In this document: positions 3 through 61,290 of the stretch, piece after piece | Layout of the letters: the number at the start of each line of letters is the position of its first letter | How positions within the stretch are numbered: position 1 is the first letter of the stretch | NCBI GenBank assembly: GCA_965153455.1 | Contig: OZ234494.1 | Location: forward strand, 10,106,001-10,170,000 | DNA: 64,000 nucleotides | Source: Sphagnum compactum | Lineage: Eukaryota | Reading direction: 5' to 3' | The notes under the pieces: model-generated | The model's database searches: none | What the model saw: only the letters and a program-made list of their open reading frames with translations | What the model was told of the DNA's origin: nothing | Program-made: the position numbers and the translations under genes

Positions 3-165
3 CCGTTTCAGCGCATTTCTGAACTAGATGTAGGATACATGGCTTTACATTATCCGTTGCTATTTCCTTACGGTGAGGATGGATGGCATCCGAATATTTT
101 GCTCAATGGTGTTGTTGTTGATGTAGATTTGGATGAAGACCATGCGGAAGAATATGAGCTTCAAT
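3..165 (+). mobile_element. Helitron Rep/helicase fragment (truncated by window edge)
   Basis: Frame +3 from nt 3 reads PFQRISELDVGYMALHYPLLFPYGEDGWHPNI, matching the conserved plant Helitron motif QRISELHxSYxALQYPLLFPYGEDGW. Confidence 0.8.
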
Positions 166-5444: not shown

Positions 5445-6020
5445 TCAGTAAACACTAGTGTCACGCATCAGGTTTTGGAAATCTTTGAAATCAACCAAGC
5501 CATCCCCATCTGTGTCCACAGATCTGATCATGTAATGGCATTCTTCCAAGGTTAGATTGGTATCACCCAAGCTTTTTAGCACACTATGAAGCTCCTCTGC
5601 AGAGATAACTCCATTGCCATCCAGGTCGAAACTATGGAAGGCGGATTCCATGACATCAGAAAAAGCAGCTCCAGTTCCTGCTGTTTCAAGTCCGTCCACC
5701 CCGCTTCCGTGCAAATTCAGGCTAATAAATTCTTGCAAGTTGATGAACCCATCACCGTCCATATCCACTTCCTCTACCATTCTTCTGAGCTCCGCGTTCG
5801 AGGGATTCTCTCCGAGGGCTTGAAGAACGGACCCAAGTTCCGCTTGTGAGATTTTACCATCGCCGTTACGATCGAATACTTTGAAGACTTCTGTCAGCTC
5901 GCTTACCATATGTGCTGATATTCCTGCACATTCTGCGACCTCAATCTCAATCTCGCCTCTTGTTGGCACAGCTTTAATCTCTGTTTTATGAGTAGTTTGG
6001 CTTGAAGACGTAGGTTCCAT
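5445..6020 (-). CDS. Calmodulin-like (CML) calcium-binding protein, 4 EF-hands, intronless
   Basis: 191-aa ORF with EF-hand loops DRNGDGKISQAE, DMDGDGFINLQE, DLDGNGVISAEE and DTDGDGLVDFKD. Confidence 0.95.
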   Translation of the reverse strand: MEPTSSSQTTHKTEIKAVPTRGEIEIEVAECAGISAHMVSELTEVFKVFDRNGDGKISQAELGSVLQALGENPSNAELRRMVEEVDMDGDGFINLQEFISLNLHGSGVDGLETAGTGAAFSDVMESAFHSFDLDGNGVISAEELHSVLKSLGDTNLTLEECHYMIRSVDTDGDGLVDFKDFQNLMRDTSVY

Positions 6021-8054
6021 ATTTTCCTCGACCGGGCCGGTACTGGGAAGATTAATCGGTCAAATGCGTCGCTCCAAACAGCACTTGAGTCGACTCCAAA
6101 AACGTTTGGTGAACCTCAGACTTTAGACCAAAAAATCCAGGAGCTTCTGTTACGATTTAGACCGTATAAAATCAGGACAATTTTGTGGCAAAGAGATAGA
6201 CCCCTAAGACTATTCGACCGAGGAAATTGATCAACTGGGTAACAGCAGCATGTGCAATTGGGAACGGAAGCAATCCAGAAATCAAGCTGCTAAAATTATG
6301 TAACTACTGCTTGAAGAATTTTTTAAAACAAGCGGATCAAGTTCTAAATTGCGAGCACCCGTAAACTTATGGACCTTGAGAGGAAATACTTGCTTACGAA
6401 ACAAAGATGGGAAGTGATGTGAAAAATCAGTTATTCTTGTGCAAGTTGTGAATTGAGTGTCTAGTTCTTATGCACTCACAAGCTCTTACATACATGAGCA
6501 GCTTCGGTTTGAAATCCTTGGTTCTCGTCAAGCTTTTGGTGTCTCGTTTCCGAACAAGCGCGAAGAAGGTGCAAGGCGTGTGCAGGAGCCGGCAGTTCAC
6601 CGTGTAACCTCCTGGAATGAAGACGTCCAGGCAGGAGTGATGATGCCGGGACAGTACCGGATGGTCGACGATCTGCGCGTGATCTATCCGGTTCTTCAAC
6701 GGGGTTTCCGAGTCCTTTCTAGCTCCGACCATAACGAAGTTTTCCCGTGCCGTGAAAGGTCCTTCCGAAATGACGTGCTGTCGCCGACACGCCGCGTGCT
6801 GACGACGTTCCCGATTGCGCCGGGCTGACCGCCCAAAATAACTTACTGTGAAATTTACACCTCCTCCTTGCTTCTTGTTCTGCACTAGGTATGGAAGAAC
6901 GTGGCGAGACCGTTAGAGTGAGCCGTCGTCCTGTTGGGCGGTAACTTGGTTTGTAATGCCCGATAGCTGTTACGTGGTCGGTAAGGCCTGTGCACAGGGG
7001 TGTTACCAAAATAAGTTGCTGCCTGAGGTACTGCCCGACATCAGGGCCTTCGCTTCGCCAATGTGAAGCGCCACTCAGTTCATTACAGTTTTCAACAGTC
7101 AAATAGTGGGCGTCGGTTTTCACTGGCCAAAATCTTCAAGATCTGACGGCCAGAGTTACGGAAGGGTAAAGAGGGTTCTTTTCCCTGTAATGTGTGGAGG
7201 GTGTTTTTACATAATGCCCTCTGTAAGGGCAGAAGAACCTGCTCTCTAGAATGGGGTCTGATTACCCCAAATAAAGGGTACCTTCCCTTACACTAAAAAA
7301 ATGAGGAGTGCTTTACAAAAATGGAAGAGCTTGCCCAGAAACTCCAAGGGCCTTGCTGCATGTAAAAGCGCTATCTCTTTCTTAAATGCAAATTTTTTGT
7401 GATACCCTTTTGGTACCTGGGTAGGAACTTTTAAAACCGGAAAAGCAAAGTAGCTTTCAACAACCCAAAGATGTTCTCCCTTTTTAGGTACCTAGTAACA
7501 TTACAATGCTGTCAAAATACACAATGAAAATTCTGACAGATCCTTAGTAGGTCTACCAAGGCATGTTCTACAGGGTAACCGATTTTCCCTTGCCCACCGG
7601 CATTCACATTTCAAGCACGTTCTCCTTGAGAATTCATGTTACGAGTTAAACTAACTGCACCAGCCTAAATGTGGAACCAGCAAATGACTGCCTGTCCCAC
7701 TTACGAAGAGGCTCAATTCGGCGGCGTTGAAAAACCCCTCATGGACCACCGGGTGTCAGTGTTGCAACTTCTCTGGCGGTCACAAAGATCTGACCAAGGG
7801 TTTGGATTCCTGTCAATCCAAAGTTTAGGGAAGGTAATGTGTCACACTTCTCCTGAGAGGTTGTGAGTTCAAAGTCAGTGAGGAGCGAATGTCCATGCAC
7901 CACATAATTTTTTGTCCTGTGCTTCCCAAGAAAGGTTTTGAACACTAAATAGGAACAAAGGATTAAAGGCAGCATCAGGTTTGATGTTTGTTGTAGGACA
8001 ATGTTAAAGAGGAATTTTTAATTTTTTTCTTTTTATTATTAATCTGAATTATGC

Positions 8055-40500: not shown

Positions 40501-42818
40501 ATAGTTGGAAAGTTCTCAACAAGGGCTAGAACTTTGCTTAAGACCTCACCTTAATCGAAGGTCTGCACAAGAAATTATGAACATCAAAAGATTTGGGAGT
40601 CTTAATTTTTGGAATTTCGGGACTCCCAATTTGCGAGTCCCATGACAAAATAACATTTGGGTGCAGCCCTCATGACTAATCACAAATAATACTATAAAAA
40701 GGGAGGTGGTGGCTTCCCCCAAGTCCGGGCCGTGGTGAGTCTTGTGAACCCACGTATGCTCATAGTTCATTTGTGCACCAAAAGTGTTCCAACTATGCAT
40801 TAACCAACTTGTTGTTTGGTTTGTGTAGGTTCGTGTGAATAGTTGACCCATTTGTCATTCGTTCTAGTCCCCATCCCGGAGCTTTAGCACGTCCTTATTA
40901 CCTTCGAAGTGCTACAAGCTAGGAAGTGTACCCCAATTATTTCTTCCATTGTTTTCACATTCGGATTCCCATTCCATTCTTTCAAGGAGTTTGGGGGTGT
41001 GTCATTTTTTTTAGTTGTAAATGATTTTTTAAAGTTGTGAATGCCACATGTAATTTCTACTAGTGTTTAATTGCCTTGGACAAGTTGCACAAAATTTTAG
41101 TTGCAAAAGATGTGATGGGGCACCTAATTGAAAAATTAATCACATCAAAGTATGTTTAACACCAACTTTTCATCCAGCCAACATGACATGGTCATGTTTA
41201 CAACTAAATTTTGTAATTTCATATGTTTATATGGCATAATCATTTGTGATTAGTTTTATAACTAAAATATGGCTTAAACATTTCAATTTTTTTACTGCTA
41301 AAATGTTGACACGTGACAAGTTCCAAATTGAAAAAATGGCATCATGTGTCCTGCTTAAATTAGCCTAAGTTAAACCACCTAACCTAAAAGCTTAGAGGCT
41401 AACCTAACATGGGTTAAGTAGGTTAACTAAATGCATTCAAGTAGGTTGCAAGTGTGAGGATTTGAACCTTCACCTTCACATTAAAAATCAAGATTTTAAT
41501 AATTACATCATTTTTTCAACAATTGATCATTTTTGTCATTACATCATTATGAACATTTTTTCTTATTCTATTTATGTGACATAACCTACATTTTCTAATT
41601 ATTTAATTACCTTCGACCACTGTAAATTATTATAAACTATTTAACCCTAAATCATTTTAAGTTATTTTTTACTATTCTATCTTAGGTTATTCTAGGTTAT
41701 TCTACCCTTAAGTTGTAGATTCTACCTTAAGCTATTCTTGGCTATTATTCTACAAACCTTGAAAAGGTTATTTCTATTTAACTCCAAATGGTGTGCAAAA
41801 CATATAAGGTGCAACTTATTGAAATATATATATAATTAATTTACTTAAATGTAAATAAGGTGCCTATAATTCATTATGAGGATATACTTAAAAATTATCT
41901 AATTCTTATTTTAAGATATACCTAAAATCTGTTCAAAATATGCCATTATTTCATAGCGAGCTAAAAAAATCCCTTTATTTCAAATGTTTTTAAAAATATA
42001 TAAGTGGTGATTTCTTCAAGCCTTGGGATATTTTAGGCTATTGTAGATTATTTGAATTTAAGTTATTTTAAGTTGTTCTACCTTAGGTTACTTAATTTGG
42101 GTATTTTACTTTAAGTTGCTCTTCATTATTTTTGGTTATTATAACCTAAGCTATTATTGATTATTTTAGGTTATTCTACTCTAGGTTATTCTAAGTTATT
42201 TTAAATTATTTTAAGTTATTATACTTTAAGTATCCTAGGACATCTATAAATATTTTAATATAATTTGCTTGAAGTTATTTTAGGTCATTCTACCTTAAGT
42301 TAATCTTGGTTATTTTACCTTGCATTATTTTAGGCTATTTAACCATAGTAAAAATGTCCATTCATAAAACTACATTATTGTAGTAGTGTGCTTAAACTAT
42401 TTAAGGTACATAATGGTGTACCTAAAGGTTACCCAAACTATTAAAGGTACATAGGGGCTACTTAGGTTGAAGCTAGTTGATGCATGCATTAACATATATA
42501 AATTTACATGTATATAGTCGTAATTCAAATTGCATTGAATGCCACATGTTCAATCACCTATAATTACATTATTAATCACAAAAATAATTAAATTTTCATT
42601 TGATGTTAAACACCATTAGTTGTAAATGATATGAATGCATGTTTCATCTTCATTTTCATCCAAATCACATGTAGTTGCAAATCATAATCACATGTGTGAC
42701 TACAAGTCGTTTTTACCATGGTGCCATGTAGGGTAATTGCATTGGTAGTCACAAAAATGGTTGATTTGGACACAAGTTGTAAATACATGGGTTGGTATGG
42801 ACATGATTCCTTGTAGTG
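37595..42818. mobile_element. Nested CACTA-like / AT-rich insertions splitting the old Gypsy copy
   Basis: CACTACAATGG at 37595 and 37873, and TAGTG ends at 42388 and 42818. The interior is AT-rich with short tandem TTATTCTACCTTAAG-like repeats (~41640-42350). No matching 3-bp TSD found, so boundaries are uncertain. Confidence 0.4.
40089..41004 (+). mobile_element. Solo LTR (TGTCAC...GTGTCA), same family as 46285-47104
   Basis: TG...CA ends. Reverse-complement similarity to 46285-47104 (e.g. GGTGGTGGCTTCCCCCAAGTCCGGGCCGTGGTGAGTC). Flanks ATTTT/TTTTT. Confidence 0.75.
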
Positions 42819-43200: not shown

Positions 43201-43398
43201 TAAAAGATGTTGATGGCATCAATGGTCAAAATCACGCCCCTCAACTTGTATACCCAAATGTTGATGTTGTTTATGCTTGAAAAAAGCTCATGACACTTCT
43301 ATAATGGATGTTAAACTGGTAACATTAGGTGCCCCAAATGAATCTTGTATCTTGTTGTCCAAACCTTAATTCCTAAGCAATGTTGAACCTATGGGCTT

Positions 43399-43713
43399 TG
43401 TCATGACCATATGTGTGTTAGCTATAACATATAGTGTGCTATGGTAGCAAGTAGTGCCTACTTAGGGTTTTTAGGTTTAGGGCTAGAGGAAAGTGGCTCT
43501 TCTGGTAGGACCCACCCTCATGTTGTGAGTGGGGGTATAAAGTGTGAGAGAGGGCTCAGTTGAGCCTAAAGCGTTGGGAGTAATTGGAGTTAGTGGAGCT
43601 TTGAGCTATGGTGTCCCGTTAGCATTGGCTTAAATTCTCTAAGTGGAGTGGGCTTGGTTTGACTGTATGTGTTTACATCACGAGTTTTATGATAGTAGAT
43701 CTTTCTCGTGACA
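43399..43713 (+). repeat. Terminal repeat A1 (315 bp)
   Basis: Direct repeat of 52928-53260. TGTCATGA...TCGTGACA, TATAAA at 43536-43541. Lacks 18 nt present in A2. Confidence 0.95.
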
Positions 43714-43718
43714 TTTTC

Positions 43719-43739
43719 ACTCAAAAAACTATGTTTTTT
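43719..43739 (+). promoter_or_regulatory. Putative self-priming primer-binding site
   Basis: Starts 5 nt after A1 and does not begin with TGG. CAAAAAACTATGTTTTTT (43722-43739) is 17/18 complementary to A2 53087-53104, which lies just downstream of the TATA box. Confidence 0.7.
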
Positions 43740-44816
43740 GGGAGTAGTTAAACCGTGGGGGTTTTGTGATCTTGCTCTCTGGTTGTGTGGCCGAATTGGG
43801 AGTGGGTGGTGTCAAAAGGAGCGCCTTGGCGAGAGCTTTTCAACACACCAAAGAATGTTGGATTTTGTTCAGCGGATCAAAAGTTATGATCATTTGAAGT
43901 TGCTAGTTTAGGGTTTGACAGTTTTTAGTGACGGTTTACCAGCAACGTTAATTTCTCAGATAAGTAGAAATTTCCTTGAAAAAAATTGCTGAAAATTGGT
44001 AGGAGTGTAGCTAGAAAGTCGATCTACAATCTGACAAAGACAGATTGTGTTTTCATTGAACGGTTTATACGTTATGTTTGTTTTTGTGGTGATGTTTTTT
44101 TCTGGTTTGTGCACACCTAGTGCAGAAGCACTGTCGGATTTTTAGCTAAATAACTAGGGAAGATCATGTGCTGCAATTTTTTGAAGTTGTTGCTTGAGGG
44201 CTGAATTACATATGGGAATTGTTTGGGATTTTTTTGGTGGAGCCAATTGGGAGTATTGACCTTCGAAAGTTCTCAAGTTTGTGTAGATTTATGCCCAGGT
44301 TTTTTTCAGCAGTTTTTCATAGGTCATATCTCGGCATACAAACCTTTTTTTCAGTCGAGTTTTGGAGAGAAGGAAGATCTAGTTGTCCTTTACATTCTGG
44401 CCGAAGTAAATTGGCATTTGGTGTAGGAACGGTGGAGATATGGTTGTTTGAGTGCTCGCTGCCCAATTTCGCAACTTTTGGCTATGGCGGATTAAGGATT
44501 TCGCCGGAAATTGAGCTTTTGGCTAGTGGGGAGCACATTTTTTGACTTGTTGTGGTGGGCCGGTTGGACGAGTTGAGCCGCTACTCAGCTAGGTGGTTGA
44601 GTTGAGTATTCGTTTCTGGTAGCAAATCGGGCACGAGGTCGACGGTATTTAGTGGTGATTCAATTTGGGTACTGGGTTTGGTGATTGGGTCATCACGGAG
44701 CAGTTTGGTGGTCCTGTGAGGGACCATGGTGGAAATGGTGGAGTTACACGTAGTGGGTTGAGGTATTGACTACCTTCCCCCACATCATCGGTTGTTGAGG
44801 AGGACGAGGTTATCAT

Positions 44817-47552
44817 GAATAACAAGTTTTCCATATTACCGTCTAGTATTGCGGCCCCATTGATTTGGGATATGGACGGGGGTTCTGGGGCCATGAAGGG
44901 CCCCCGACGTTACTCAGGTGCAGTGGGCACCATCAAGTTGGAGGACTTCATTCACGAGTTTGATTATTGGTGTGATATGTAGATGTTACGTAACGCCAGA
45001 TTGTTCTCACCCTTCTTGGCATGGAAGGGATTGTTTCAGCACTTGGAGGGTCCTCCGATGGATGATTATCATGAGTTTCGGAGAGATCATGCTACTGAGA
45101 TTGAGGAGTGGAGGCAGCATTGGTCTCCATCCTATGTATCTATTACTCACGGTGGTGTTGTTAGTGATGGTATTACTACACCGTCTACTCCTAGTACGAG
45201 CACACATGTTATTCCCCCACCTCTATTTAACCCTATCACGGAGTTCTTTTTGAGGCTGAAGAAGAACTACCAGGCGGTGAAGACGGAAAAGTTGAAGAGT
45301 CTTCAGGAATTTGAGCGGAAGATTAATGAGAGTCTTCGCGAGGCATACACTCGTATGCGACGGTTGATTGCAGTTACCCAGGGGGTGACGGAGGCTCAGG
45401 CATTTCAATTTTGGTATGGATTCTAGATAAGGAGTTGCAACAGAGAGCACGTGATGTGACTCTCATGAGTGACGATTTTCCCACATCGGCCCATGTGTTT
45501 GCTTTGTCTGAGAAGATAGAGCTTAACATGGTGGAGGAGAGGGTGGTGACATCTGGATTCAATAGGGATATAGTTACTACTTCTCGTGGACAGCAGTCCA
45601 CCTCACAACCTCGTACTAGTGGAGGTGGGAGTCGTGGAGGTCAGGTACGACCTCAGTCAGGTTCTGGAGGGACGGGTGCACAAAGACCATTGCCTTCATT
45701 CGCTAGTCAACAGCAAGGACAGTCTTGTTGGACATGTGGTGGTGCTCATATTCGGAGGGATTGTCCACAGGAGAGTGGAGGACAGACTTTGGCTGATGGA
45801 TCTCAGTCGGCACAAGTTTAATGTGATAACTGTGGTCGGGTCAGCCACCCTCGTGAACGTTGTTTTGACCTTTACCCAAAATTGAGATTAGGTCGTGGTG
45901 GAGCGGCTCAAAGAGGTCGTGGTGGTAGAGGTGGTAGAGGTGGTGGGGGTGGTAGAGGTACACCAACACTTAGGGCACCTCCCATGATCACTCCTCACCC
46001 TACGACAGAGGCAGCTATGGCTGCTAGGATTGAGCAGTTGGAGCAAAGGCTTGCTACCATGGCAAGTTTCCAACATCGATCACATTCCAGAGGTGAGGTT
46101 CCCACATCTTATGGGGGAGATGATCTCTTTTATATGGCTAGTGTAGCACAAATTGAGGCATCCGTTGCAATGACGAGAGGCGTCACTCGAGCTCGGAGCC
46201 ACATGGGGCAATTGTGGGGTTGGATCCACAGAGGGGTGAAGCTGGTAGACAGGCTAGGCTTCCCCAATCATTCTTGTTGTCTGATGACGCGCTCCCCAAG
46301 TCCCTTGTTGAACCCACTTGAAGGTCCAACTACGTTGAGTTGCGGAAAGTTGGGACTTGAGGGCCGCTCCCGACTTCCAGCACTAAAGAGGGGTAGAGGG
46401 GCGTGCTAGAAGTCCCGGGATTAGACTAGGAAGAGGACAAGCTTTTCACCTACTCAAATCTACATCAAAACCAACCCCAAGTTGGTTAGAACTCATTCTG
46501 CACCCTTTTGGTGTTGGGACAAGCCACGGGTTAACTCGGACTCACTTGACTCACCACGGCCCGGACTCGGGGGAAGCCACCACCTTCCCCCATATAGTAT
46601 ATTCTGTGTCTCACCGCGGAGGCTACATCCGAATGGCTCTTTTTCCCGGGACTCCCAAGTTGGAGTCCCGAAACTGTCCCGGGTTGGAGTCCCGGAACTT
46701 TGGGAGCTCATATCTCCCGGCTTCGACCTCTGATTGGAGTGAGGTCTCAACCAAAGTTGTAGCTCTCCTCGAGAGCTCTTCAAAACCATGTTGCATTCCT
46801 TCAGGCAACGTCGGGAAAGGGTCGATTCCCGACTTTTAGTGGTCGGGAGTCAAACTGCCAGTTTGACTCCCGGCCCTTCTTTTGCCCATAACTTGGGCTG
46901 CAGATGTCCAAATGGCCAATGCGAGGGCATTTTAGACATTTACACTTCAAGACCTTTCCATTTATATAAAGAACACCTCAAGGCAAGGTGTTTTGACCCC
47001 TTGTAATCGCTTCTGAGTTTTCGGGAGTCCCGGAGGACTCCAACTTCCCACTTTTGGGAGTGTGGGCTTCACCCTCACACTTAGCCAGAAGTGGGGTTGC
47101 GACATTTGAAGTGGTTAGGACTCCTTCCATGGTTCCTACTCCGCCTATTGAGCCAACAGTGGGGCCAACAGCATCGACATCACATGTAGTGGACATTGAT
47201 GTATCATCGAGTGCATTGTCGCGGATGGTGACTTCAGTGTTGGGATCCCCAACATTTTCGGCTAATGATTTGATGGCGTCAGGAGTTGACTTAACTCGTG
47301 TATTTCGACTAGCAGCCACATTGTGTGAACCTGGGAGTGTTGTTGCTACAAGTGCCGAGGTGTGTGAGGGTGTTGATGTGGGGCAACTTGTGGCAGGGGA
47401 TGTTGTTGTGGAGCAATTCGTGGTATCAGGTGTGGATAGTCCTTGGCAGGCAGCGGCGATTAAGATGGATGCATTACAAGCTCGACCAGCCATCGATCGT
47501 GAGAGGCTTACACCTAGTGTATGTATGTTGGATAATCGGAGTGGTATTTTCT
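44817..47552 (+). pseudogene. gag region (two CCHC zinc knuckles, RGG-rich tract), interrupted by a solo LTR
   Basis: Capsid-like ...KLKSLQEFERKINESLREAYTRMRRL; CWTCGGAHIRRDC and CDNCGRVSHPRERC; RGRGGRGGRGGGG. In-frame stops and frameshifts. Confidence 0.85.
46285..47104 (-). mobile_element. Nested solo LTR with 5-bp TSD
   Basis: Minus strand TGTCGCAACC...GCGCGTCA. Flanks TCTGA (46280-46284) and TTTGA (47105-47109). Removing it restores the host frame ...PQSFLLS-EVVRTPSM.... Confidence 0.9.
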
Positions 47553-47554
47553 AG

Positions 47555-47878
47555 TTGGTGAGTCCTACGGGCCAGGTGTATAGACCAGATCGGGTTTTGT
47601 TGGATTCTGGTGCCCAACCCTTGATGTTGGGGAAGGCAGCATGTATTGGTTTGGGTATTCGGAGGTCAGAGCTTGAGCCGTGCCCATTCCAAATTCAGAC
47701 ATCACTTGGTGGAACCAGTGATAGGTCTAACTTCATGACACGTGAGAGATTGTTGGTGCAAATGAAACCGAATCATGTGACAGATAGCTCTAGGTTGGGA
47801 GTGACTGTTATTGTTACAGCAGCTGAGTCGTATGATGTACTAGTTGGAGGTGTCGTGTTGTATCCGATGGGTTTCTAG
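47555..47878 (+). pseudogene. Retroviral-type aspartic protease domain
   Basis: VLLDSGAQPLMLG active-site motif and YDVLVG C-terminal motif. Confidence 0.9.
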
Positions 47879-48329
47879 ATGGATTATTGGACAGAGACAA
47901 CGACTTATCGACCTGGTTGGCAGTCTGGGGATGGACGGATGAGCCACGTGCCTGTGAGATTTATTTCTGGGGTTCGACCAGGAGGGTCTCCCCCAGAGGT
48001 GTTCGCATCAGTTGCTGGTTTTAGTGGAATGGTCACTTGGCCAGGTGACTTGTTGGAGGGCAACATTTCAGCCATTGACACTTCGGTCTACGAGGATATA
48101 GAGGAGGTTTCTAGCTTTGTTGCAGCAGTGTCCTCCTCATTGGATGTTCCACTTTGGCGTTTGAGTGGGGTGTTACGGCAGGATGCCGATTGTTTGGTAT
48201 CACAGGCTTGGCGTGAGGCTTTTGTGCCTGTGGAGGAGGAGGAGGTTCCACAACGGACTCCTATTTTTCGTCCTGTTGGGTTGTCTCCATTGGATACTAC
48301 ACCCATTGCGTGGGAATATCCTTCCGAAG

Positions 48330-49265
48330 GTATTTGCGTGTTGGATCTATTTGGTGGGATCAGCACTGGTTTGGCAGCAGTGCTTCAAGTGGGTATTCTA
48401 GTTTGGAAGTACTTTTACGTGGAGAAAGATGAGACCGCGAGGAGGGTTTCATCGCTCCATCTTGCATTATTGATGCGGCGATATCCTGAGTTGTTGCCGA
48501 GGTCGGCTATTTGAGGATATCAGCGAGCTTTGCCATCAAACATTGCATTGTTTGGGGCGCAAGACTTTGCGAGAGTTGGTCCTATTAATTTGGTGATTGC
48601 TGGATGGCCATGCCAGGGTCATATTTGGGCTGGTCGTGGTGAGGGATTACGTGACCCTCTCGTATGTTTTGGGAGATGTTGCGGGTGTTACATCATCTTC
48701 AAACACATCAGGCACGTGTTCCCGCGTACATTCTGGAGAATGTACCTTTGTTGGGTGATTCTAGGTCTCATGTGATGGCAAGTGTACACCAAATCTGGTC
48801 TTGGATTGGACCAACGGTTTTATTGGATGCAACGAGGGTTGGCTCACGTGCTCATCGTCCCCGATTGTGGTGGACGAACTTGTTGTCGAGGGAGGTGTTG
48901 AAACGGGCATATGAGACAGTACCACGATCTTCTCAACTCATAGTGGATAGTATCTTAGATATTGGGCGATGTTCTCAGGTGGTGAAAGTTGTTGATAGGT
49001 CACCCATGGCAGTGGTGAATTGAGTGGGACAGCCTAGGATGGCGTTACCCACATTTGTCAATTTTCCAGCATCACATGCCTATAGAGAGGGTGGTCCTGG
49101 GCTTGTATGGGATAGTTCTTTGCAGTAATTGGTGGAGCCCAACGTCAATGAGAGAGAGTGTGCAATGGGTTTCTTACAGGAGTGACATTTGTCCCTTTTA
49201 TTTCCGAGGCTTCACGTCAACACGTGTTGGGTCAAGCTATGGACCTGAATTGTTTGACTTGGATT
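48330..49265 (+). pseudogene. C5 cytosine DNA methyltransferase domain, DNMT3-like, embedded in pol
   Basis: Motif I VLDLFGGI, II YVEKD, IV IAGWPCQG (catalytic Cys), VI YILENV, VIII LDATRVGSRAHRPRLWWTNL, IX ERECAMGF and X RQHVLGQAM, in canonical order. A few stops and two frameshifts. Confidence 0.92.
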
Positions 49266-49569
49266 GTTAGCCTTGGTATGGCTGAGCAGCGTCGGCTCAG
49301 AGCCACATTTGTAGTAGTTACACCTCTTGTGAGCTCGCTGTCCACCGTGACGGTAGAAGCATCGACTGGGGGCGAGAAAAGTTGTACATTTCATCCTTGG
49401 AGTACATGGGATGTGTTGGGAGAGCATGTGAAGGTTGTGGCCCATGCTGTTGGAGGAGTTTGTTGCTCCATTGGTGTTCCATTGGGTGACTTGGAGGAGT
49501 GTGTGGCTTTTCCCAAGGTTTTTGCATAGCAACCCATGGCGTCGTCCTCTTCCTCTAGTGTGTCTATCG

Positions 49570-50960
49570 AGGAGACTTGGGAGCCTTTGATGGGGCCCAA
49601 GCTAATAGGAGGAGAAAGGCGACGGTTGATGCAATTCCTAAGAGCTTACAGGAGTTGTTTTGCCTTTAGTATGAAGGAGTTGGGTGCTTTGATTGGACTT
49701 GGTATACGGATTGAGTTGGCTAGTGACACGCCAATCTTCCGTTGTCCTTATAGATATAGTGATATGGAGAGGGACCTGATTCGGAGTCAGACGTTGGATC
49801 TATTAGAGGCTAGATTAGTGGAGTTGTCGCATGGTGAGTATGCATCAGCCACTGTCATGCCTGCCAAAAAGGATGTACATGGCAACTATTCAGATAGGCG
49901 GATGTGTGGAGACTACCGTCCTATCAATTGGCAGACTAAGTTCGATAAGTATGCCATGCCTACACCTGAAAAGATCTTGATGTGTGGGACATGCGAAGGT
50001 TTTTAGTACACTTGATCTTCGAGCAGGGTACCATCAGTTGCCGATTTGAGAGGAGGACAACGCCAAGACCGCATTTTGGGGCATCAACTCTCACGGCAAG
50101 GATTGTTTGTATCAGTGGAAGTTCTTACCCTTTGGGTTGAAGAACGCGCCTGCCGAGTTTCAACGTGTGATGGATAGGATCTTAGCAGGGTTGGATTTTG
50201 TCCGGTGTTATATCGATGATATTGTGGTATATAGTGATATCGTGGAAGAGCACCAAATTCATCTACAAATTGTGTTTGAGCGGTTGAAGGCTCATGGTCT
50301 TCGTTTACATCCTGGGAAGTGTAAGTTTTTCCAGGAGAGTGTGGAGTATCTGGGTCATGTGATCTACACAGGTGGTTTGGGAATGCAACAAGCCAAGGTG
50401 GAGGCTATTGCACGTATTCCGCGTCCCACGGATGTGAGTAGGGTTCGTGCTTTCATGGGATTGACGAACTACTATCGCAGGTATGTCAAAGGCTTTAGTG
50501 CGATGGCAAAGCCTTTGAACATGTTGAAGTTGGATCAGGAGTGGCAGTGGGGTGATGAGCAGGAGCGAGCTTTTGTGGAGCTCAAGACTAGGTTAGTTGC
50601 AGCTCCCATCTTGAGGAGACCTATTAAGGGGCGTCCATTCCAGCTACACATTGATTGGAGTATGTTGGGACTTGGAGCGGTGTTGACACAGTGTGATGAT
50701 GAAGGGAAGGAGTTTGTGGTGGCCTATGCGAGTCGTTCGAACAATGCAGTGGAGTCACGCTATAGTTCTTACGAGGGAGAGTGTTTGGCAGCGGTGTGGG
50801 CTGTTGCACACTTCAGGTGTTACTTGTTTGGCACACAGTTTACCCTTGTCACTGATCACTAGCCGCTCAAGTGGTTGATGGAGTTCGATAAATTTACAGG
50901 AAAGCTTGCACGGTGGGCTCTCATCTTACAGGAGTATGACTTCCAGGTGGTGCATAAACC
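49570..50960 (+). pseudogene. Reverse transcriptase and RNase H
   Basis: RMCGDYRPIN, LPFGLKNAPAEFQR, YIDDIVVYS, KCKFF, LHIDWS, YSSYEGECLA, TDH, WALILQEYDF. Confidence 0.97.
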
Positions 50961-51399
50961 TGGAGTTACAAACCTCGATGCCAATGGATTGAATCGAAAC
51001 CCATGCACTAGCCAAGAGGATAATACTGGACTAGATGGCATGGCGAGGTTGATGAGGAGATGGTGCCAGGTTGGCATGCATCGGCCTTTTTGTGCTTGTT
51101 GGGTGTGGACTCTAGTATGGAGGGCCACGTGACATCTTACTCTAGTCAAAGGGTAGATGGCCAGTCTTCAGATCCTGAGGTTGGGGATGGTAGCATCGGT
51201 CACCATGATGTTCATGATGATACATTAGTGTTGGAGTTTTTACGAACCAGTATGGTGTCAGGCATGGTGAGTGCTAAGGAAAGAGACCGTGTTCTCCAAC
51301 GAGCTAAGAGGTATCGGTTGGAGGGGACACATATACTCCGAGTGTGGGAGGATGGTAAGGTACGGATTGTACCACATCCAGACCAGAGAAGGCGTATTG

Positions 51400-52655
51400 T
51401 GCGGCATGCCCATGAGGAGTTGGGTCATTTTGGAGTAAAGCGGACATATAGTTTACTCCTAGGTCAGTATTGGTGGCGTGGTATACACACCGATGTGCAA
51501 TGATTAGTGTCACATTGCATGGTTTGTGATAGGGTGAGGGCATCGTTCAATACCCCTACACCACAGTTACACCCCTTGCCTATTATGGGGTTGGGTTATC
51601 GCTGGAGTTTGGACTTTGCGGGACCATTACCATTGACGGTATGGCACAACAAATATGTGTTGGTGATGGTGGAGCACTTCTTTAAGTGGATTGAATTGGT
51701 GCCATCCCCTGACAAATCCAGCGAGGGAGTAGCGTATGCATTCCTTAATAGGGTGTTTAGTCATTTTGGTGCACCAGCTGAAGTGTTGACCGATCAAGGT
51801 ACGGAGTTTCAGGGTGAGTTTCAGGTCTTGTGTGACAAGGCGTTGATTGATCACCGAACCACGTCTCGAGATCATCCAGAGGCAGATGGTTTAGCTGAGC
51901 GTGTGGTACAAACGGTGAAGAGGGCATTGCGCAAATATGGCTTACAGAAAGGCCACCTAGGGGATTGGGATATTCAGTCACCATGGTTGGCCATGGGATA
52001 TCGATTCAGTCGTCAGGCATCCTTGGCTTCCTTCTCACCTTATTTTCTATTGTACGGCCCAGATCTAGACTTGCCAACAACGATTCGTCGTGAGTCTAGT
52101 GAGGTGGTGAACCTTGATGACCCGGAGATGTGGTTGAGGGTGTGTTCTCAACGTGAGCTCTTTCGAAGAGTTATGCCAGTAGCGTTTGAAAACCTTGCCA
52201 TTGTTCAACACAGGGATACATTGCGATATGCGATTATCCGGGGTGGAGGTTATCGACCATTGATTCGTAGGTTCCATGTGGGGGACTATGTCTATTTGCA
52301 GCAGACTGCACCAACGACATTGGATGTAATGGCAGGCCGCACTATCTTACGAGTGGGAGAGGTGTTAGCTTCTGGAGTTCTCATGTTGGAGGGTCGTGAT
52401 GGTGTTGTTTGGAAGGACCATGTGCGTAATTATGCGCCATGTCACCTCCCAAATGTGGATGGTATAGTTGACCCAAGTTTGGCAATGGTACGGGCCGGCT
52501 TGAGGTGTATGTTATGTGGGTCTAAAGGTGGAGCAGCCCATATGTTGGTGTGTGATAAATGTTCTAGGGGTTGGCACATGGCGTGCATGACTCCACCTAT
52601 GGATGTTGTTCCCGTTGGACGGTGGATTTGTCCTCGTTGTACTTTGGAGGGGTAG
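51400..52655 (+). pseudogene. DDE integrase with C-terminal PHD finger
   Basis: HHCC (HEELGHFG...CMVC), D (LDFAGP), D (TDQG), E (GLAERVV). C4HC3 PHD CMLC...CDKC...WHMAC...WICPRC at ~52506-52640. Confidence 0.95.
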
Positions 52656-52805
52656 ATGACTTGATCTTCACATGGTATGGATTGCAGATGGGCGACTAAC
52701 GATGGGGCAACATAGCACCCGGCCTTTTGATTTGTGCACCCGCGAAGGTGTATAGCATGTAGAAGATGTATAAGGCTACCTGGAAGTTAGAGGGACCTAA
52801 CCACC

Positions 52806-52821
52806 AGCTAGGGGGGCGAGT
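52806..52821 (+). promoter_or_regulatory. Polypurine tract
   Basis: AGCTAGGGGGGCGAGT immediately precedes the TG of repeat B1. Confidence 0.8.
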
Positions 52822-53380
52822 TGTGGTACACATGTATTTGTGTATGTTCTCGTCCATGTTATGTGTTTGTGTGTGTATGTGAGTATGGTATGTCAGCGAT
52901 GTATGTTGTATGTATTCACACGACAGCTGTCATGACCATATGTGTGTTAGCTATAACATATTGTGTGTTATGGTAGCGAACAGTGCCTACTTAGGGTTTC
53001 TAGGTTTAGGGTTAGAGGAGAGTGGCTCTTCTAGTAGGACCCACCCTCATGTTGTGAGTGGGGGTATAAAGTGTGTGAGAGGGCTCAAAAAACATAGTTC
53101 TTTGAATTGAGCTTAGAGCGTTGGGAGTAGTTGGAGTTAGTGGAGCTTCGAGCTATGGTGTCCCGTTAGCATCGGCCTAGATTCTCTGAGTGGAGTGGGC
53201 TTGGCTTGACTGTATGTGTTTGCATCACGAGTTTTATGATAGTAGATCTTTCTTGTGACATTTTCAGTTGTGGTACACATGTATTTGTGTATGCTCTCGT
53301 CCATGTTATGTGTTTGTGTGTGTATGTGAGTATGGTATGTCAGTGATGTATGTTGTATGACGATATGTATTCGCACGACA
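52822..53380 (+). repeat. 3' terminal repeat block: B1 (52822-52925), GC, A2 (52928-53260), TTTTCAGT, B2 (53269-53380)
   Basis: B1 and B2 are near-identical (TGTGGTACACATG...CACGACA; B2 has 8 extra nt). A2 matches A1. Confidence 0.95.
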
Positions 53381-56300
53381 GCTTAACCTAACCTTAATTC
53401 TAAAGCACCTACACCCATTAAGAACATTCCACATGTTCAAACAAAAGTGGGATTCATTATGAACATAACAATTATGGTCTATTGGCCATCAACCTAATTC
53501 CACCATCACAATAATCAATGGAACACTTTGGTGATCAAATCCAGGAATGTCCACAATAGTCCCAAAATAGATTACAACCTAACCCTTCCCACTAATTCCC
53601 AACCTTGTTTTTGCATTCTTAAGGTTTTGTGCTTTAATGAAGAAAATGCACAAGTTGAACTTGTTTGGTTAACCCAAATGTGGTATTGTTTGGGTTCACA
53701 CATTTGTTACAAGATTACAAGGTATATAACACAAGATTTAAAACTTGGGTCCCACACACTCATTATAGAATTACAAGTGCCAACTAAACCATATGTTCCC
53801 CACACCTATACCTTCACAAATGTGTCAACAAACAAGGTGGAAAATAGATGTTCCCCAATTATAACACACAAGTGGGAATGAAATTTTTCATACCTCATGA
53901 ATTCTTAGTTTTGTAATTCATGTTTGAAAATTACAACAAAACACTTAAATAGAACATCAAAAGTCAACAACATGACATTCCATGGGTGTTAATGATGCAA
54001 CATTCTACCACTTGTGGGTTACAATTATTGATGTTTATTGACATCAACATTAAATTGCCCAAAAACTGGTTTCACATACACCATTGCCCCATGTTAGTGA
54101 AAAAACCCTTAGAAATTTTCCTATTTGAATGGGCTAAACCTCCCACATGTGTAGGATGGCCTACAAATAGAAACTTGGGCATGAATTCAAAACTTGTTGA
54201 CATGATGTGGTTCACATTCAAATACAATAACACATTGTTGTGTGTTATATGCTATTGGCCCACTTGAATGAAAATTTGAATTGAACAATGGCACACCTTT
54301 TTTAAGTCTAAAATCCAATTTTCAAAATTAAAAATTGAAATTTAATTCAATTTCCAAAGACCAAATCTATTTTAAAATCAACGTTTTTCATACCTTAAGA
54401 ATAATCATTATGAAATCACCTCCATAAAACCTTCGTCATTGAAGGTTTTCCAACAATATGAAGAACATGCCTCAATCTATTTAAATTTTTTAATTTCAAT
54501 ATATCGAATTTTCAATGAAAACATTGTTCAATATTCAATATTCCTATATTATAGGTCTAAACAGTATGCAACCATATTGGTGCACCTCTCCTCATTGAGG
54601 GCTTTTCAGTTGGTATCAAGAGTGAGATGGGGGCTACCGTGGTTTGGGAAATTTCAATGTGACAAAAAAAGAAAAAACAAACAAACAAACAAACAACCGT
54701 CCTTGATAAATAGATGCCAAATTTTCACATGATCATGTAAGTGAGAAAAAAATCAAGCTTCTAAATCATTAAGATGGGGCATTAATGTTTGTGTGTGTAA
54801 CCTATAGACACACTTCATTCTTATTTTTATGAAAAGACAAATGTTTTTGGGAATGCACCTTTTCATATATGAGTTATGAAGTAAAACTTTGGGATATGAA
54901 TAATGTCGCCCTTAGGATATATAGTGATGTTCCTGGATTGCACAAGAACATAAGGGGGGCATCACTATTTATTTATCATTGAAAAAAAATGAAATTGTTT
55001 CAATTGTTGCTAAAAGGAGTTTAGGAATCTAACATCCAAAATCTCTTACCTATGAGTGATGTTTCACATTTTTCTATCAAACATTACATTATTTTTAAAG
55101 TGAAATTATGCAATTTCAAATATAATTTTTCAAAATTTCATCATATGAAGAATAACTTTGCAAAGTACACTTTTTGTTATGTATTTGTAATAATAACCCA
55201 ATGGTTTGGACAATAAATAGTTTTTCACAAGTTGGGAGTTCAATTTTCAATAATTTTGACAAAGAATAATATCTATTTTGTCCAACTAGACCTTTTATGA
55301 ATTATTTTGTGCCAAACATTAATTGTAGTTACAATAGCCCACCTAATTGTGCACTCACCCAATGTAAACTTTTTTTATGCAATGATTTTTCAAATCATGG
55401 TGTTGTTGGGAAAATATATTAGGTGCACATTTTGGATACATGTTGCCACCCTTCATTCTTGAGTAGAATTGTTACACCATTTTTTACCTAACCTTTTACA
55501 ATGCATTTTGATTGAATAATATAGACTTAAATGGTTTTACATTTACATGTCCCGTACTAAACACTTACACTTATACTTACATGGATGTAGATGGCCCTTG
55601 TACACTTCCATGGAGTGCAAGTCCTAAACCATATACACACACAACATTGAAAACTACATCTATGAATGAAAAGAACATCATCCACATTTAACTATCTATA
55701 GAGGTGGCTAAATTGCAATGGCCATGCCAACTGTATCTTGAGAGTGTCCAAATTTTGGAAGCTTATATGTTGGGAATGTCCAAAGTGTTGAACCATTTTT
55801 TTTGTGATGGGAAAATCAACAAGGCCCGTCACAAAAAAAAAAGAGAAAAAAGCGAAGGCATGCACAACTAATCAAGAGAAACCAAAAGGTATCACTAATA
55901 CCATATTGGGACCCCACATTCAACCTTGCAGTTCTGTAATGTGTGATTTTGGGAGATGAAATGGAGTCTTTTGAACAATTATTCAAATTGAATTTATTGG
56001 ATTCAGCAAGTGACCTATTTCCAAACGCTTCCAAACTATCCTCTTCAATGAATTATGTGACTCAGCACCCACCACTGAAAACTTGTTATATTCCACGTTG
56101 GTAACCTATCTTGCAAACCCTCTCGCTTCCACCTCACACTACCAAGGTAATTACTTCTATAAGTGGGTAAGTATCCGAGGTAAGTGAGTCCCAAATGCAA
56201 ATGAGTACTATGGAGATAGGTAAGTAAGTAGGCAAGGCACATGGTGGCGACTAGGTACATAGATACTAGATCCATGGGGATGGTAAGGGCATAGGTAACC

Positions 56301-60949: not shown

Positions 60950-61290
60950 TGACTAAATTAATTTTGATTCAATTAATCATAGTTAAACTAATCATGATTA
61001 AATTATCCATGGTTAGATTAATTAGAAGGTTAAATTTATTAGTTAACTAAGCCATATTTAATTTAGTCATGTTAGTTTACCCATTGTTAGTTTAATTTAA
61101 CCTCCTAACTAGTTTAAATTTTTAGTGAATTTTAACCATAGTTAGTTTAGCCAAAATTAGTTTACCCATGTTGGTTTACCAAAGTTAATTTACACATGGT
61201 TAGTTTACCCAAAGTTAATTTAGCCATGGTTAGTTTAGGCATAATTAGTTGAACCATGGTTAGCCATGGTTAGTTTAACCTTGATTAATG
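60950..61290. repeat. AT-rich ~20-bp degenerate tandem array
   Basis: Repeated TTAGTTTA(A/C)CCAT(G/A)G-like units. Confidence 0.7.

What the first reader, a model, noticed from the sequence alone, without database searches (positions are those of the whole stretch)
43714..43740. tRNA-independent, Tf1-like self-priming signature
Seen: no TGG-type PBS follows A1. Instead 43722-43739 is 17/18 complementary to AAAAAACATAGTTCTTTG (53087-53104), which starts 22 nt after the first T of the LTR TATAAA, near the expected transcription start. Pairing extends by 3 nt using the A1 allele (AGT). Established: S. pombe Tf1 primes with the cleaved 5' end of its own mRNA (11 nt). Inference: self-priming with an unusually long ~18-21 nt primer.
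Basis: partly seen in the sequence, partly recalled or inferred. Interest (0 to 1): 0.72.

Follow-up and report, generated by a model that had tools for sequence, protein, structure and literature searches.

The report
Self-priming site, split-repeat moss retrotransposon
A moss jumping gene with unusually rearranged end repeats most likely starts copying itself with the first 12 or so bases of its own RNA instead of a tRNA, as yeast Tf1 does, though this particular copy has lost that starter piece.

Summary
The 17/18 match is real, and self-priming is well supported, but the primer is most likely about 12 nt, not 18-21. The site follows the 5' repeat of a decayed Gypsy element (RT-RH-integrase-PHD, cytosine-methyltransferase remnant) laid out A-internal-B-A-B with a 4-bp target duplication, like KnitGypsy-Dnmt3 of Klebsormidium. 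Three families in this genome have different primer sites, each matching its own repeat from TATA+29 to +32 (12-13 nt core). Five rearranged copies break off at about base 12 of the site, and the next base varies freely in the young family. The longer match here comes from a family-specific hairpin at the predicted start. This copy's own 5' repeat has the primer segment deleted. No tRNA match among 63 genes (an incomplete set); RNA data did not place the start. Insertion ends lie at an internal palindrome, while the A2|B2 joint looks end-joined anew, suggesting that integrase cuts inside one LTR. Self-priming and the split layout are each in print; I did not find them together. The scan noted this before on other DNA of this genome.

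The parts
43395..43398 (+). 5' target-site duplication (GCTT)
   Evidence: repeated at 53381-53384
43399..43718 (+). Repeat A1 (5' end, begins TG; TATAAA at 43536); primer segment and hairpin core deleted (18 nt between 43558 and 43559)
   Evidence: 298 matches and 22 mismatches (20 transitions) to A2
43719..43730 (+). Primer-binding site, 12-nt core (G>A change at 43726 in this copy)
   Evidence: break points of rearranged copies
43731..43742 (+). Extension that also matches the upstream hairpin arm and folds back on the site itself; probably outside the primer duplex
   Evidence: two fixed G:U positions; diverged in metagenome copies L241, L245
44791..46406 (+). Broken gag-like region with CCHC motifs
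   Evidence: translation; weak Retrotrans_gag hit E=0.04, below cut-off
46285..47106 (.). About 820-nt later insertion, not part of the element
   Evidence: absent from sister copies L241, L245, L301, L302
47561..47875 (+). Protease-like segment (LLDSGA motif)
   Evidence: read from translation; no Pfam hit; the intact second family has the domain
48317..49020 (+). Broken C5 cytosine methyltransferase domain
   Evidence: 46% and 34% identity to the PF00145-bearing part of the second family's polyprotein
49530..50862 (+). Reverse transcriptase and RNase H, with stops and frameshifts
   Evidence: Pfam RVT_1, RT_RNaseH
51024..52655 (+). DDE integrase (H2C2, rve) ending in a PHD finger; no chromodomain
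52810..52818 (+). Polypurine tract
   Evidence: sequence; same position in sister copies
52819..52925 (+). Repeat B1 (ends CA)
52922..52931 (.). 10-bp palindrome at the B|A border (CA-GC-TG): the same bases that form the two insertion ends
   Evidence: kept in families 1, 2, 3 and in 5 metagenome loci
52928..53265 (+). Repeat A2 (TATAAA at 53065)
53084..53107 (+). Hairpin around the predicted start site; primer template 53096-53107 (TATA+31)
53266..53380 (+). Repeat B2 (3' end, ends CA)
53381..53384 (+). 3' target-site duplication (GCTT)

Best explanation
The family primes minus-strand synthesis with the 5' end of its own transcript. Transcription starts about 31 nt after the TATA box in repeat A (inferred, not measured). 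The first ~12 nt (range 11-14) pair with the 12 nt that follow A1, are cut off (by analogy with Tf1, by RNase H; inferred) and serve as primer. The extra complementarity out to 17-24 nt in this family lies in DNA upstream of the start, which is the other arm of a hairpin, and is not part of the primer. The window's copy is dead for priming: its A1 lost the segment after insertion.
For: Shown: three families with RT identity 55-61% to each other's window query have different sites, each perfectly complementary to its own repeat from an A preceded by a pyrimidine at TATA+31 (L003), +32 (L063), +29 (L115); read without gaps, 8 of 12 positions differ among families and all stay paired. 13-nt complements in 0 of 20,000 shuffles for families 2 and 3; 4 of 4 usable cross-family controls under 6 nt. 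Family 2: the base after the 12-nt site is A/C/T in 10/10/2 of 22 5' ends while the opposing base is T in 22 of 22. Family 3: subfamilies diverge right after a 13-nt site in 13 5' ends. Five copies break at base 11-12 of the site: L009, L013, L014, metagenome L191 and family-2 L305, the length that plus-strand strong-stop DNA would carry. No tRNA 3' end match over 2 nt among 63 genes. Predicted pairing probability 0.93-0.99 in all three families. Established: Tf1 uses 11 bases and RNase H cleavage (PMC7175516, passage).
Against: No transcription start was observed: the only raw RNA run gave 0 reads on a young family-2 copy, and the other three runs are contigs. Family 1 really does match for 17 nt perfectly in 6 of 8 intact copies and 24 nt with G:U, and folding gives the same pairing for starts from +19 to +31. 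Break points at base 12 coincide with the loop of the site's own hairpin in family 1, so some could be hairpin-driven (not so for L305, family 2). The tRNA set is incomplete (63 scored of about 26,565 candidates; no nuclear Pro, Cys, and probably no nuclear initiator Met).
Confidence: 0.82

Rival explanations
1. Self-priming with a long primer (17-24 nt) in this family, from a start at TATA+19 to +26.
For: 24-nt match with two G:U pairs conserved in 8 of 8 intact copies at the G:U positions; long duplex is the predicted fold.
Against: Fixed G:U positions would be converted if the primer were copied at each cycle; copies break off at base 11-12; sister families use 12-13 nt; metagenome copies L241 and L245 changed the extension but kept most of the core; plant starts usually lie near TATA+30 (recalled).
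Confidence: 0.07
2. The match is a DNA-level relic or structural element (inverted repeat, hairpin copying), and priming uses something else.
For: Hairpins at the predicted start in families 1, 3 and metagenome locus L204; deletions (L001, L002, L006) and loop flips (L014, L017) show DNA-level rearrangement there.
Against: Family 2 has no such hairpin (z = -1.0) yet keeps the match; the match sits at the LTR edge and at TATA+29..32 in all three families; rearranged copies carry exactly the core.
Confidence: 0.07
3. Priming by a tRNA, half-tRNA or other host RNA not in the set tested.
For: The tRNA set was incomplete.
Against: No TGG; the site changes between families in step with the element's own repeat, which a conserved tRNA could not follow; best run anywhere 9 nt, not at a 3' end or anticodon loop.
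Confidence: 0.04

Closest known systems
KnitGypsy-Dnmt3 of Klebsormidium nitens / streptophyte Gypsy-DNMT3 (de Mendoza et al. 2018, PMC5890265; passages and Fig. 4 legend read, supplements searched as text; lineage name seen in a passage of bioRxiv 10.64898/2026.05.21.726589)
   Same: Gypsy domains with a C5 methyltransferase in Pol and DIRS-like repeats (A-coding-B-A-B). Integrase-PHD relatives labelled K. nitens at 50-53% identity.
   Different: The paper's text has no 'priming', 'target site' or PHD. Here: moss host, self-priming site, 4-bp target duplication, palindromic B|A border. I could not compare with the paper's own sequences or see its figures.
Tf1/Tf2 of Schizosaccharomyces pombe, Tj1 and the Tf1/sushi group (passages: PMC7175516, PMC4600332, PMC11042837)
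   Same: Site directly after the 5' repeat pairs with the predicted RNA 5' end; primer length 11 versus about 12-13; retained primer-site copies and extra untemplated bases at cDNA ends.
   Different: Tf1 has two full LTRs and no methyltransferase; Tf1 priming is shown by experiment, this one by sequence only.
Plant Tcn1 chromoviruses and TAR copia elements (Neumann et al. 2019, PMC6317226, passages; Novikova 2010, PMC2864245, passages)
   Same: Predicted self-priming in moss and plant elements, called by a complement of 10 bp or more starting 0-5 bp after the LTR; this element passes that rule.
   Different: No chromodomain (PHD instead); RT only 37-41% identical to three chromodomain-bearing elements of the same genome and outside their group in an unrooted tree; split repeats that the survey's TG..CA two-LTR filter would not have kept (inference).
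Integrase cleavage of palindromic 2-LTR junctions in foamy virus (PMC1180852, abstract only) and HIV-1 (PMC1905944, search listing only)
   Same: A DDE integrase cutting a CA-nn-TG palindrome inside duplex DNA to give processed ends.
   Different: There the palindrome is made by joining the two cDNA ends; here it is encoded inside the LTR and the end-to-end joint is a different place.

Membership tests
Tf1-type self-primed LTR elements (works like) | Sequence right after the 5' repeat is complementary to the element's own repeat downstream of TATA | tested here: met
   three families; not in the window's own A1 (deleted)
Tf1-type self-primed LTR elements (works like) | No tRNA-type primer site | tested here: met
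   no TGG; best 3' end match 1-2 nt among 63 tRNA genes, set incomplete
Tf1-type self-primed LTR elements (works like) | Compensatory change between the two segments | tested here: met
   between families; within family 1 copies only decay, no compensatory pairs seen
Tf1-type self-primed LTR elements (works like) | RNA 5' end coincides with the segment | tested here: inconclusive
   no reads in the raw run; contigs cannot show starts
Tf1-type self-primed LTR elements (works like) | RNase H cleavage releases the primer | not testable with these tools
   needs biochemistry
Tf1/sushi - Tcn1 chromoviruses (membership) | Chromodomain at the integrase C-terminus | tested here: not met
   PHD, no Chromo hit
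Tf1/sushi - Tcn1 chromoviruses (membership) | Two complete LTRs | tested here: not met
   A-internal-B-A-B; no B before A in 14 of 14 family-1 and 22 of 22 family-2 5' ends
Tf1/sushi - Tcn1 chromoviruses (membership) | RT groups with chromoviruses | tested here: inconclusive
   outside the group (95/91) that holds the genome's chromodomain elements, but tree unrooted, bootstrap unsettled, no named Tf1/Tcn1 reference
Streptophyte Gypsy-DNMT3 (KnitGypsy-Dnmt3 lineage) | C5 methyltransferase inside a Gypsy Pol | tested here: met
Streptophyte Gypsy-DNMT3 (KnitGypsy-Dnmt3 lineage) | DIRS-like repeats A-coding-B-A-B | tested here: met
Streptophyte Gypsy-DNMT3 (KnitGypsy-Dnmt3 lineage) | Methyltransferase falls in the Dnmt3 clade with the K. 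nitens sequences | not tested
   no DNMT tree built; reference sequences not on hand
DIRS/Ngaro/PAT tyrosine-recombinase elements | Tyrosine recombinase, no target duplication | tested here: not met
   DDE integrase; 4-bp duplications
Troyka (PMC12440569, abstract, introduction and part of methods read) | CG..CG termini and 3-bp target duplication | tested here: not met
   TG..CA termini, 4-bp duplication

The most novel reading that the evidence does not exclude
The Gypsy-DNMT3/PHD lineage is a self-priming group separate from Tf1/Tcn1, and it inserts by a route not described for LTR elements: ordinary reverse transcription gives linear B-A-internal-B-A DNA whose ends are not integrase sites; integrase instead cuts the palindrome encoded inside the left LTR, and the original cDNA ends are joined by end-joining before or after insertion, giving A-internal-B-A-B. 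That would explain the split repeats with a DDE integrase, the ragged A2|B2 joints, and the single-B and primer-site-truncated copies.
Probability: 0.5. Interest if true: 0.8.

Novelty: new variant of a known kind. Interest (0 to 1): 0.55.

Why it matters
It extends self-priming to a Gypsy lineage outside the chromodomain elements for which it is predicted in mosses, and so bears on the argument that self-priming marks Tcn1 as a fungal import (Neumann 2019). Knowing where the primer ends fixes the cDNA ends, and these turn out not to be the insertion ends. That makes the unexplained split repeats of KnitGypsy-Dnmt3 testable, and would make cutting of an internal palindrome, a debated side reaction in retroviruses, the normal route of a natural element.

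Tried and rejected
RNA reads: the look-up of sequencing runs gave 4 contig runs with a 0.05-0.06 share and 1 raw run; laying them on a young family-2 copy gave 0 raw reads (about 12% of the run read) and no start or end sites: no test, and no evidence of expression. Folding of transcripts starting at +19, +22, +26, +29, +31 did not separate long from short primers; my expectation that the local hairpin would block a long primer was wrong. Viral contigs: no match. Metagenome scan: 80 loci kept of 455; of 26 with a long upstream flank only L191 and L253 passed the strict TATA-plus-complement scan at the right place, with three chance-like hits elsewhere; L241 and L245 were read by hand; a fourth family (L204, L206) lacks its 5' end, so its site could not be tested. 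The palindrome was found in only 5 of 20 distant loci scanned (many old or short). The family-1 rows of the shuffle and cross-family test began one base early and were redone; the B1/B2 comparison had a wrong end motif and was redone. L016 (B-A-site in an inverted rearrangement inside another copy, with microhomology) was set aside from the 5'-end and break-point counts. Troyka, DIRS/Ngaro and Tcn1 membership rejected (see membership test). L004, L013 and L014 3' ends were not found within about 10 kb.

Full report
Observation. Bases 43722-43739 are 17/18 complementary to 53087-53104, and 53087 is 22 nt after the first T of TATAAA at 53065. No TGG follows the repeat. The match is in fact longer: 43719-43742 against 53084-53107 gives 21 Watson-Crick pairs, 1 G:U and 2 mismatches. 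But the matching segment exists only in the 3' copy of the repeat. The 5' copy A1, from which the transcript would start, has an 18-nt deletion there, and no stretch of the site finds more than 6 complementary bases in A1. A1 and A2 differ at 22 of 320 aligned bases, 20 of them transitions, so this is an old copy, and three G>A changes private to it (43726, 53090, 53106) shape the 17/18 figure.

The element. 43399-53380 is a Gypsy-type retrotransposon: RT, RNase H, H2C2, rve integrase and a C-terminal PHD finger, in broken frames, with a methyltransferase remnant between protease and RT that aligns to the PF00145-bearing part of an intact relative. Its repeats are split: A1-internal-PPT-B1-A2-B2, flanked by GCTT on both sides. 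Integrase relatives carry labels from liverworts, Sphagnum and Klebsormidium; methyltransferase-PHD polyproteins also occur in green algae. The layout is the family rule: 14 of 14 family-1 5' ends (30 loci of 34 matches) and 22 of 22 family-2 5' ends have no B before A; a crude motif test says the same for 13 family-3 5' ends. Four-bp duplications flank 13 of 13 family-1 pairs and solo A-B units tested (two of them share flanks and may be one insertion) and 14 of 15 family-2 pairs by script; the 15th was a motif slip and shows the duplication. De Mendoza et al. 2018 (PMC5890265; passages and Fig. 4 legend) describe KnitGypsy-Dnmt3 with the same repeat layout and Gypsy domains; 'priming' does not occur in its text and its supplements held as text did not describe the element; figures I could not see may bear on this.

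Covariation. The genome holds at least three families (RT 55-61% identical to the window). In named copies the segment and site are: L003 AGTTCTTTGAGT at TATA+31; L063 AGTTTTTCTAGA at +32; L115 ACTTTTGGTGATT at +29; each is the exact complement of the bases after A1. Read without gaps, 8 of the first 12 positions differ among the three and all remain paired. Shuffles: 3 of 20,000 reach 12 nt for family 1, 0 of 20,000 reach 13 nt for families 2 and 3; 4 of 4 usable cross-family controls stay under 6 nt. Metagenome loci L191 and L253 repeat the pattern at +31 and +32. Within family 1 I saw only decay, no compensatory pairs. Among 63 distinct tRNA genes from 50 loci (organellar and apparently foreign ones included; an incomplete set), the best match at a 3' end was 1-2 nt and the best anywhere 9 nt.

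Primer length. For the long reading: in family 1 the first 17 positions are perfect in 6 of 8 intact copies and the match runs to 24 nt with G:U, and folding predicts the duplex equally for starts from +19 to +31. Against it: (a) positions 18 and 23 are G:U in 8 of 8 intact copies; a primer is copied into the site at each cycle (established for LTR elements), so fixed wobbles lie outside it, capping the primer at 17 nt; (b) L009, L013, L014, L191 and family-2 L305 break at base 11-12 of the site; (c) in family 2 the next base is A, C or T in 10, 10 and 2 of 22 copies while its would-be partner is always T; (d) family-3 subfamilies diverge right after 13 nt; (e) L241 and L245 changed the extension. 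The extension is explained by a 10-bp hairpin centred on the predicted start in family 1 (L003 z = -4.4), also present in family 3 and L204 but not in family 2 (z = -1.0). The hairpin is a rearrangement hot spot: deleted in L001, L002, L006, loop flipped in L014, L017. Its role is unknown; one guess is that it keeps plus-strand strong-stop DNA from folding back on itself. The start site itself was not observed.

What the primer end implies. With a 12-nt primer, ordinary reverse transcription yields linear B-A-internal-B-A DNA that starts at the A after the PPT and ends just before the site. These ends are not conserved between families, while the B|A border is: a 10-bp palindrome with CA-GC-TG at its centre, whose CA and TG are the insertion ends (5 of 20 distant loci). 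B1 and B2 of one copy differ by 0.94 bases on average against 6.75 between copies (n = 17), A1 and A2 by 1.87 against 5.32 (n = 15), with no column fixed differently: both repeats are reset at each cycle, as LTRs are. The A2|B2 joint differs in length in 4 of 17 young family-2 copies (two extra A, two short), while B1|A2 keeps its length in 17 of 17 and the A1|site border is the same in 22 of 22; 3 of 12 older family-1 joints differ in length, and one family-3 joint retains a copy of the site (L134). Tf1 cDNA is reported to retain site copies and gain untemplated bases (PMC11042837, passage). One copy has an internal region cut off before the PPT and joined straight to B, with a target duplication (L005/L301); four have a single B (L002, L007, L191, L305; duplication exact in two, 3 of 4 bases in two), two of them with a jump right after the site. 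All this fits integrase cutting the palindrome and the cDNA ends being joined separately (inference; about 0.5). Foamy-virus integrase is reported to cut palindromic 2-LTR junctions (PMC1180852, abstract). Unexplained: the mirror product A-B-A-internal-B was never seen; the left LTR becoming double-stranded first is my guess. Single-B copies could also come from B1 x B2 recombination, and one copy has an extra A-B unit (L050).

Placement and novelty. In an unrooted RT-RH tree of 31 rows, seven other Gypsy rows of this genome, three from chromodomain-bearing elements, form one group (95/91) apart from all methyltransferase/PHD rows; the bootstrap had not settled and no named reference was included. 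Self-priming is shown for Tf1 (PMC7175516, PMC4600332, passages) and predicted for 12% of plant elements, Tcn1 and TAR among them (PMC6317226, passages). I found no paper joining self-priming, or an insertion mechanism, to the Gypsy-DNMT3 lineage in searches; the library lacks most subscription papers and Repbase Reports. Earlier notes of this scan reached a similar reading on other DNA of this genome, after I had formed mine; they are not independent support. Verdict: observation confirmed, self-priming likely (0.82 with a short primer), long primer unlikely, new variant of a known kind, interest 0.55.

Noticed in passing
window 46285-47106; similar arm at 40626-40747: About 820-nt repeat inserted in the element, absent from sister copies and present near or inside several other copies in either orientation; probably another mobile element.
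   Followed up: partly
window 5445-6059, minus strand: Calmodulin-like EF-hand ORF.
   Followed up: no
window 41618-42355 and 60973-61289: Decayed AT-rich tandem arrays with 5/10-nt and 15-nt periods.
   Followed up: no
L141/L145 (G000:C563:28602-32217): Dense cluster of 13 tRNA genes including one with a TCA anticodon; looks like a non-plant mitochondrial genome in the assembly.
   Followed up: no
P0162, P0170, P0149: Gypsy polyproteins with methyltransferase-like region and PHD in Haematococcus and Monoraphidium, and one labelled as a bacterial MAG protein (probably mis-binned); in P0170 and P0149 the methyltransferase lies between RNase H and integrase rather than before RT.
   Followed up: partly
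L061-L068, L075-L076 and others (family 2): A young family of the same lineage with repeats 100% identical within copies and a single frame of about 2,480 codons, so it moved recently.
   Followed up: yes
L272 (G000:C1:3030500-3032500): A complete B-A unit with part of the primer site inserted in reverse inside another copy's RT region, flanked by a duplicated stretch: looks like a template-switch product.
   Followed up: partly
L026 and L028 (G000:C14:201854 and 348106): Two solo A-B units with the same flanks 146 kb apart: a segmental duplication or assembly duplicate.
   Followed up: no
L063, L115 just after the primer site: Families 2 and 3 have a separate hairpin right after the site; family 1 folds the site itself into a hairpin.
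   Followed up: partly
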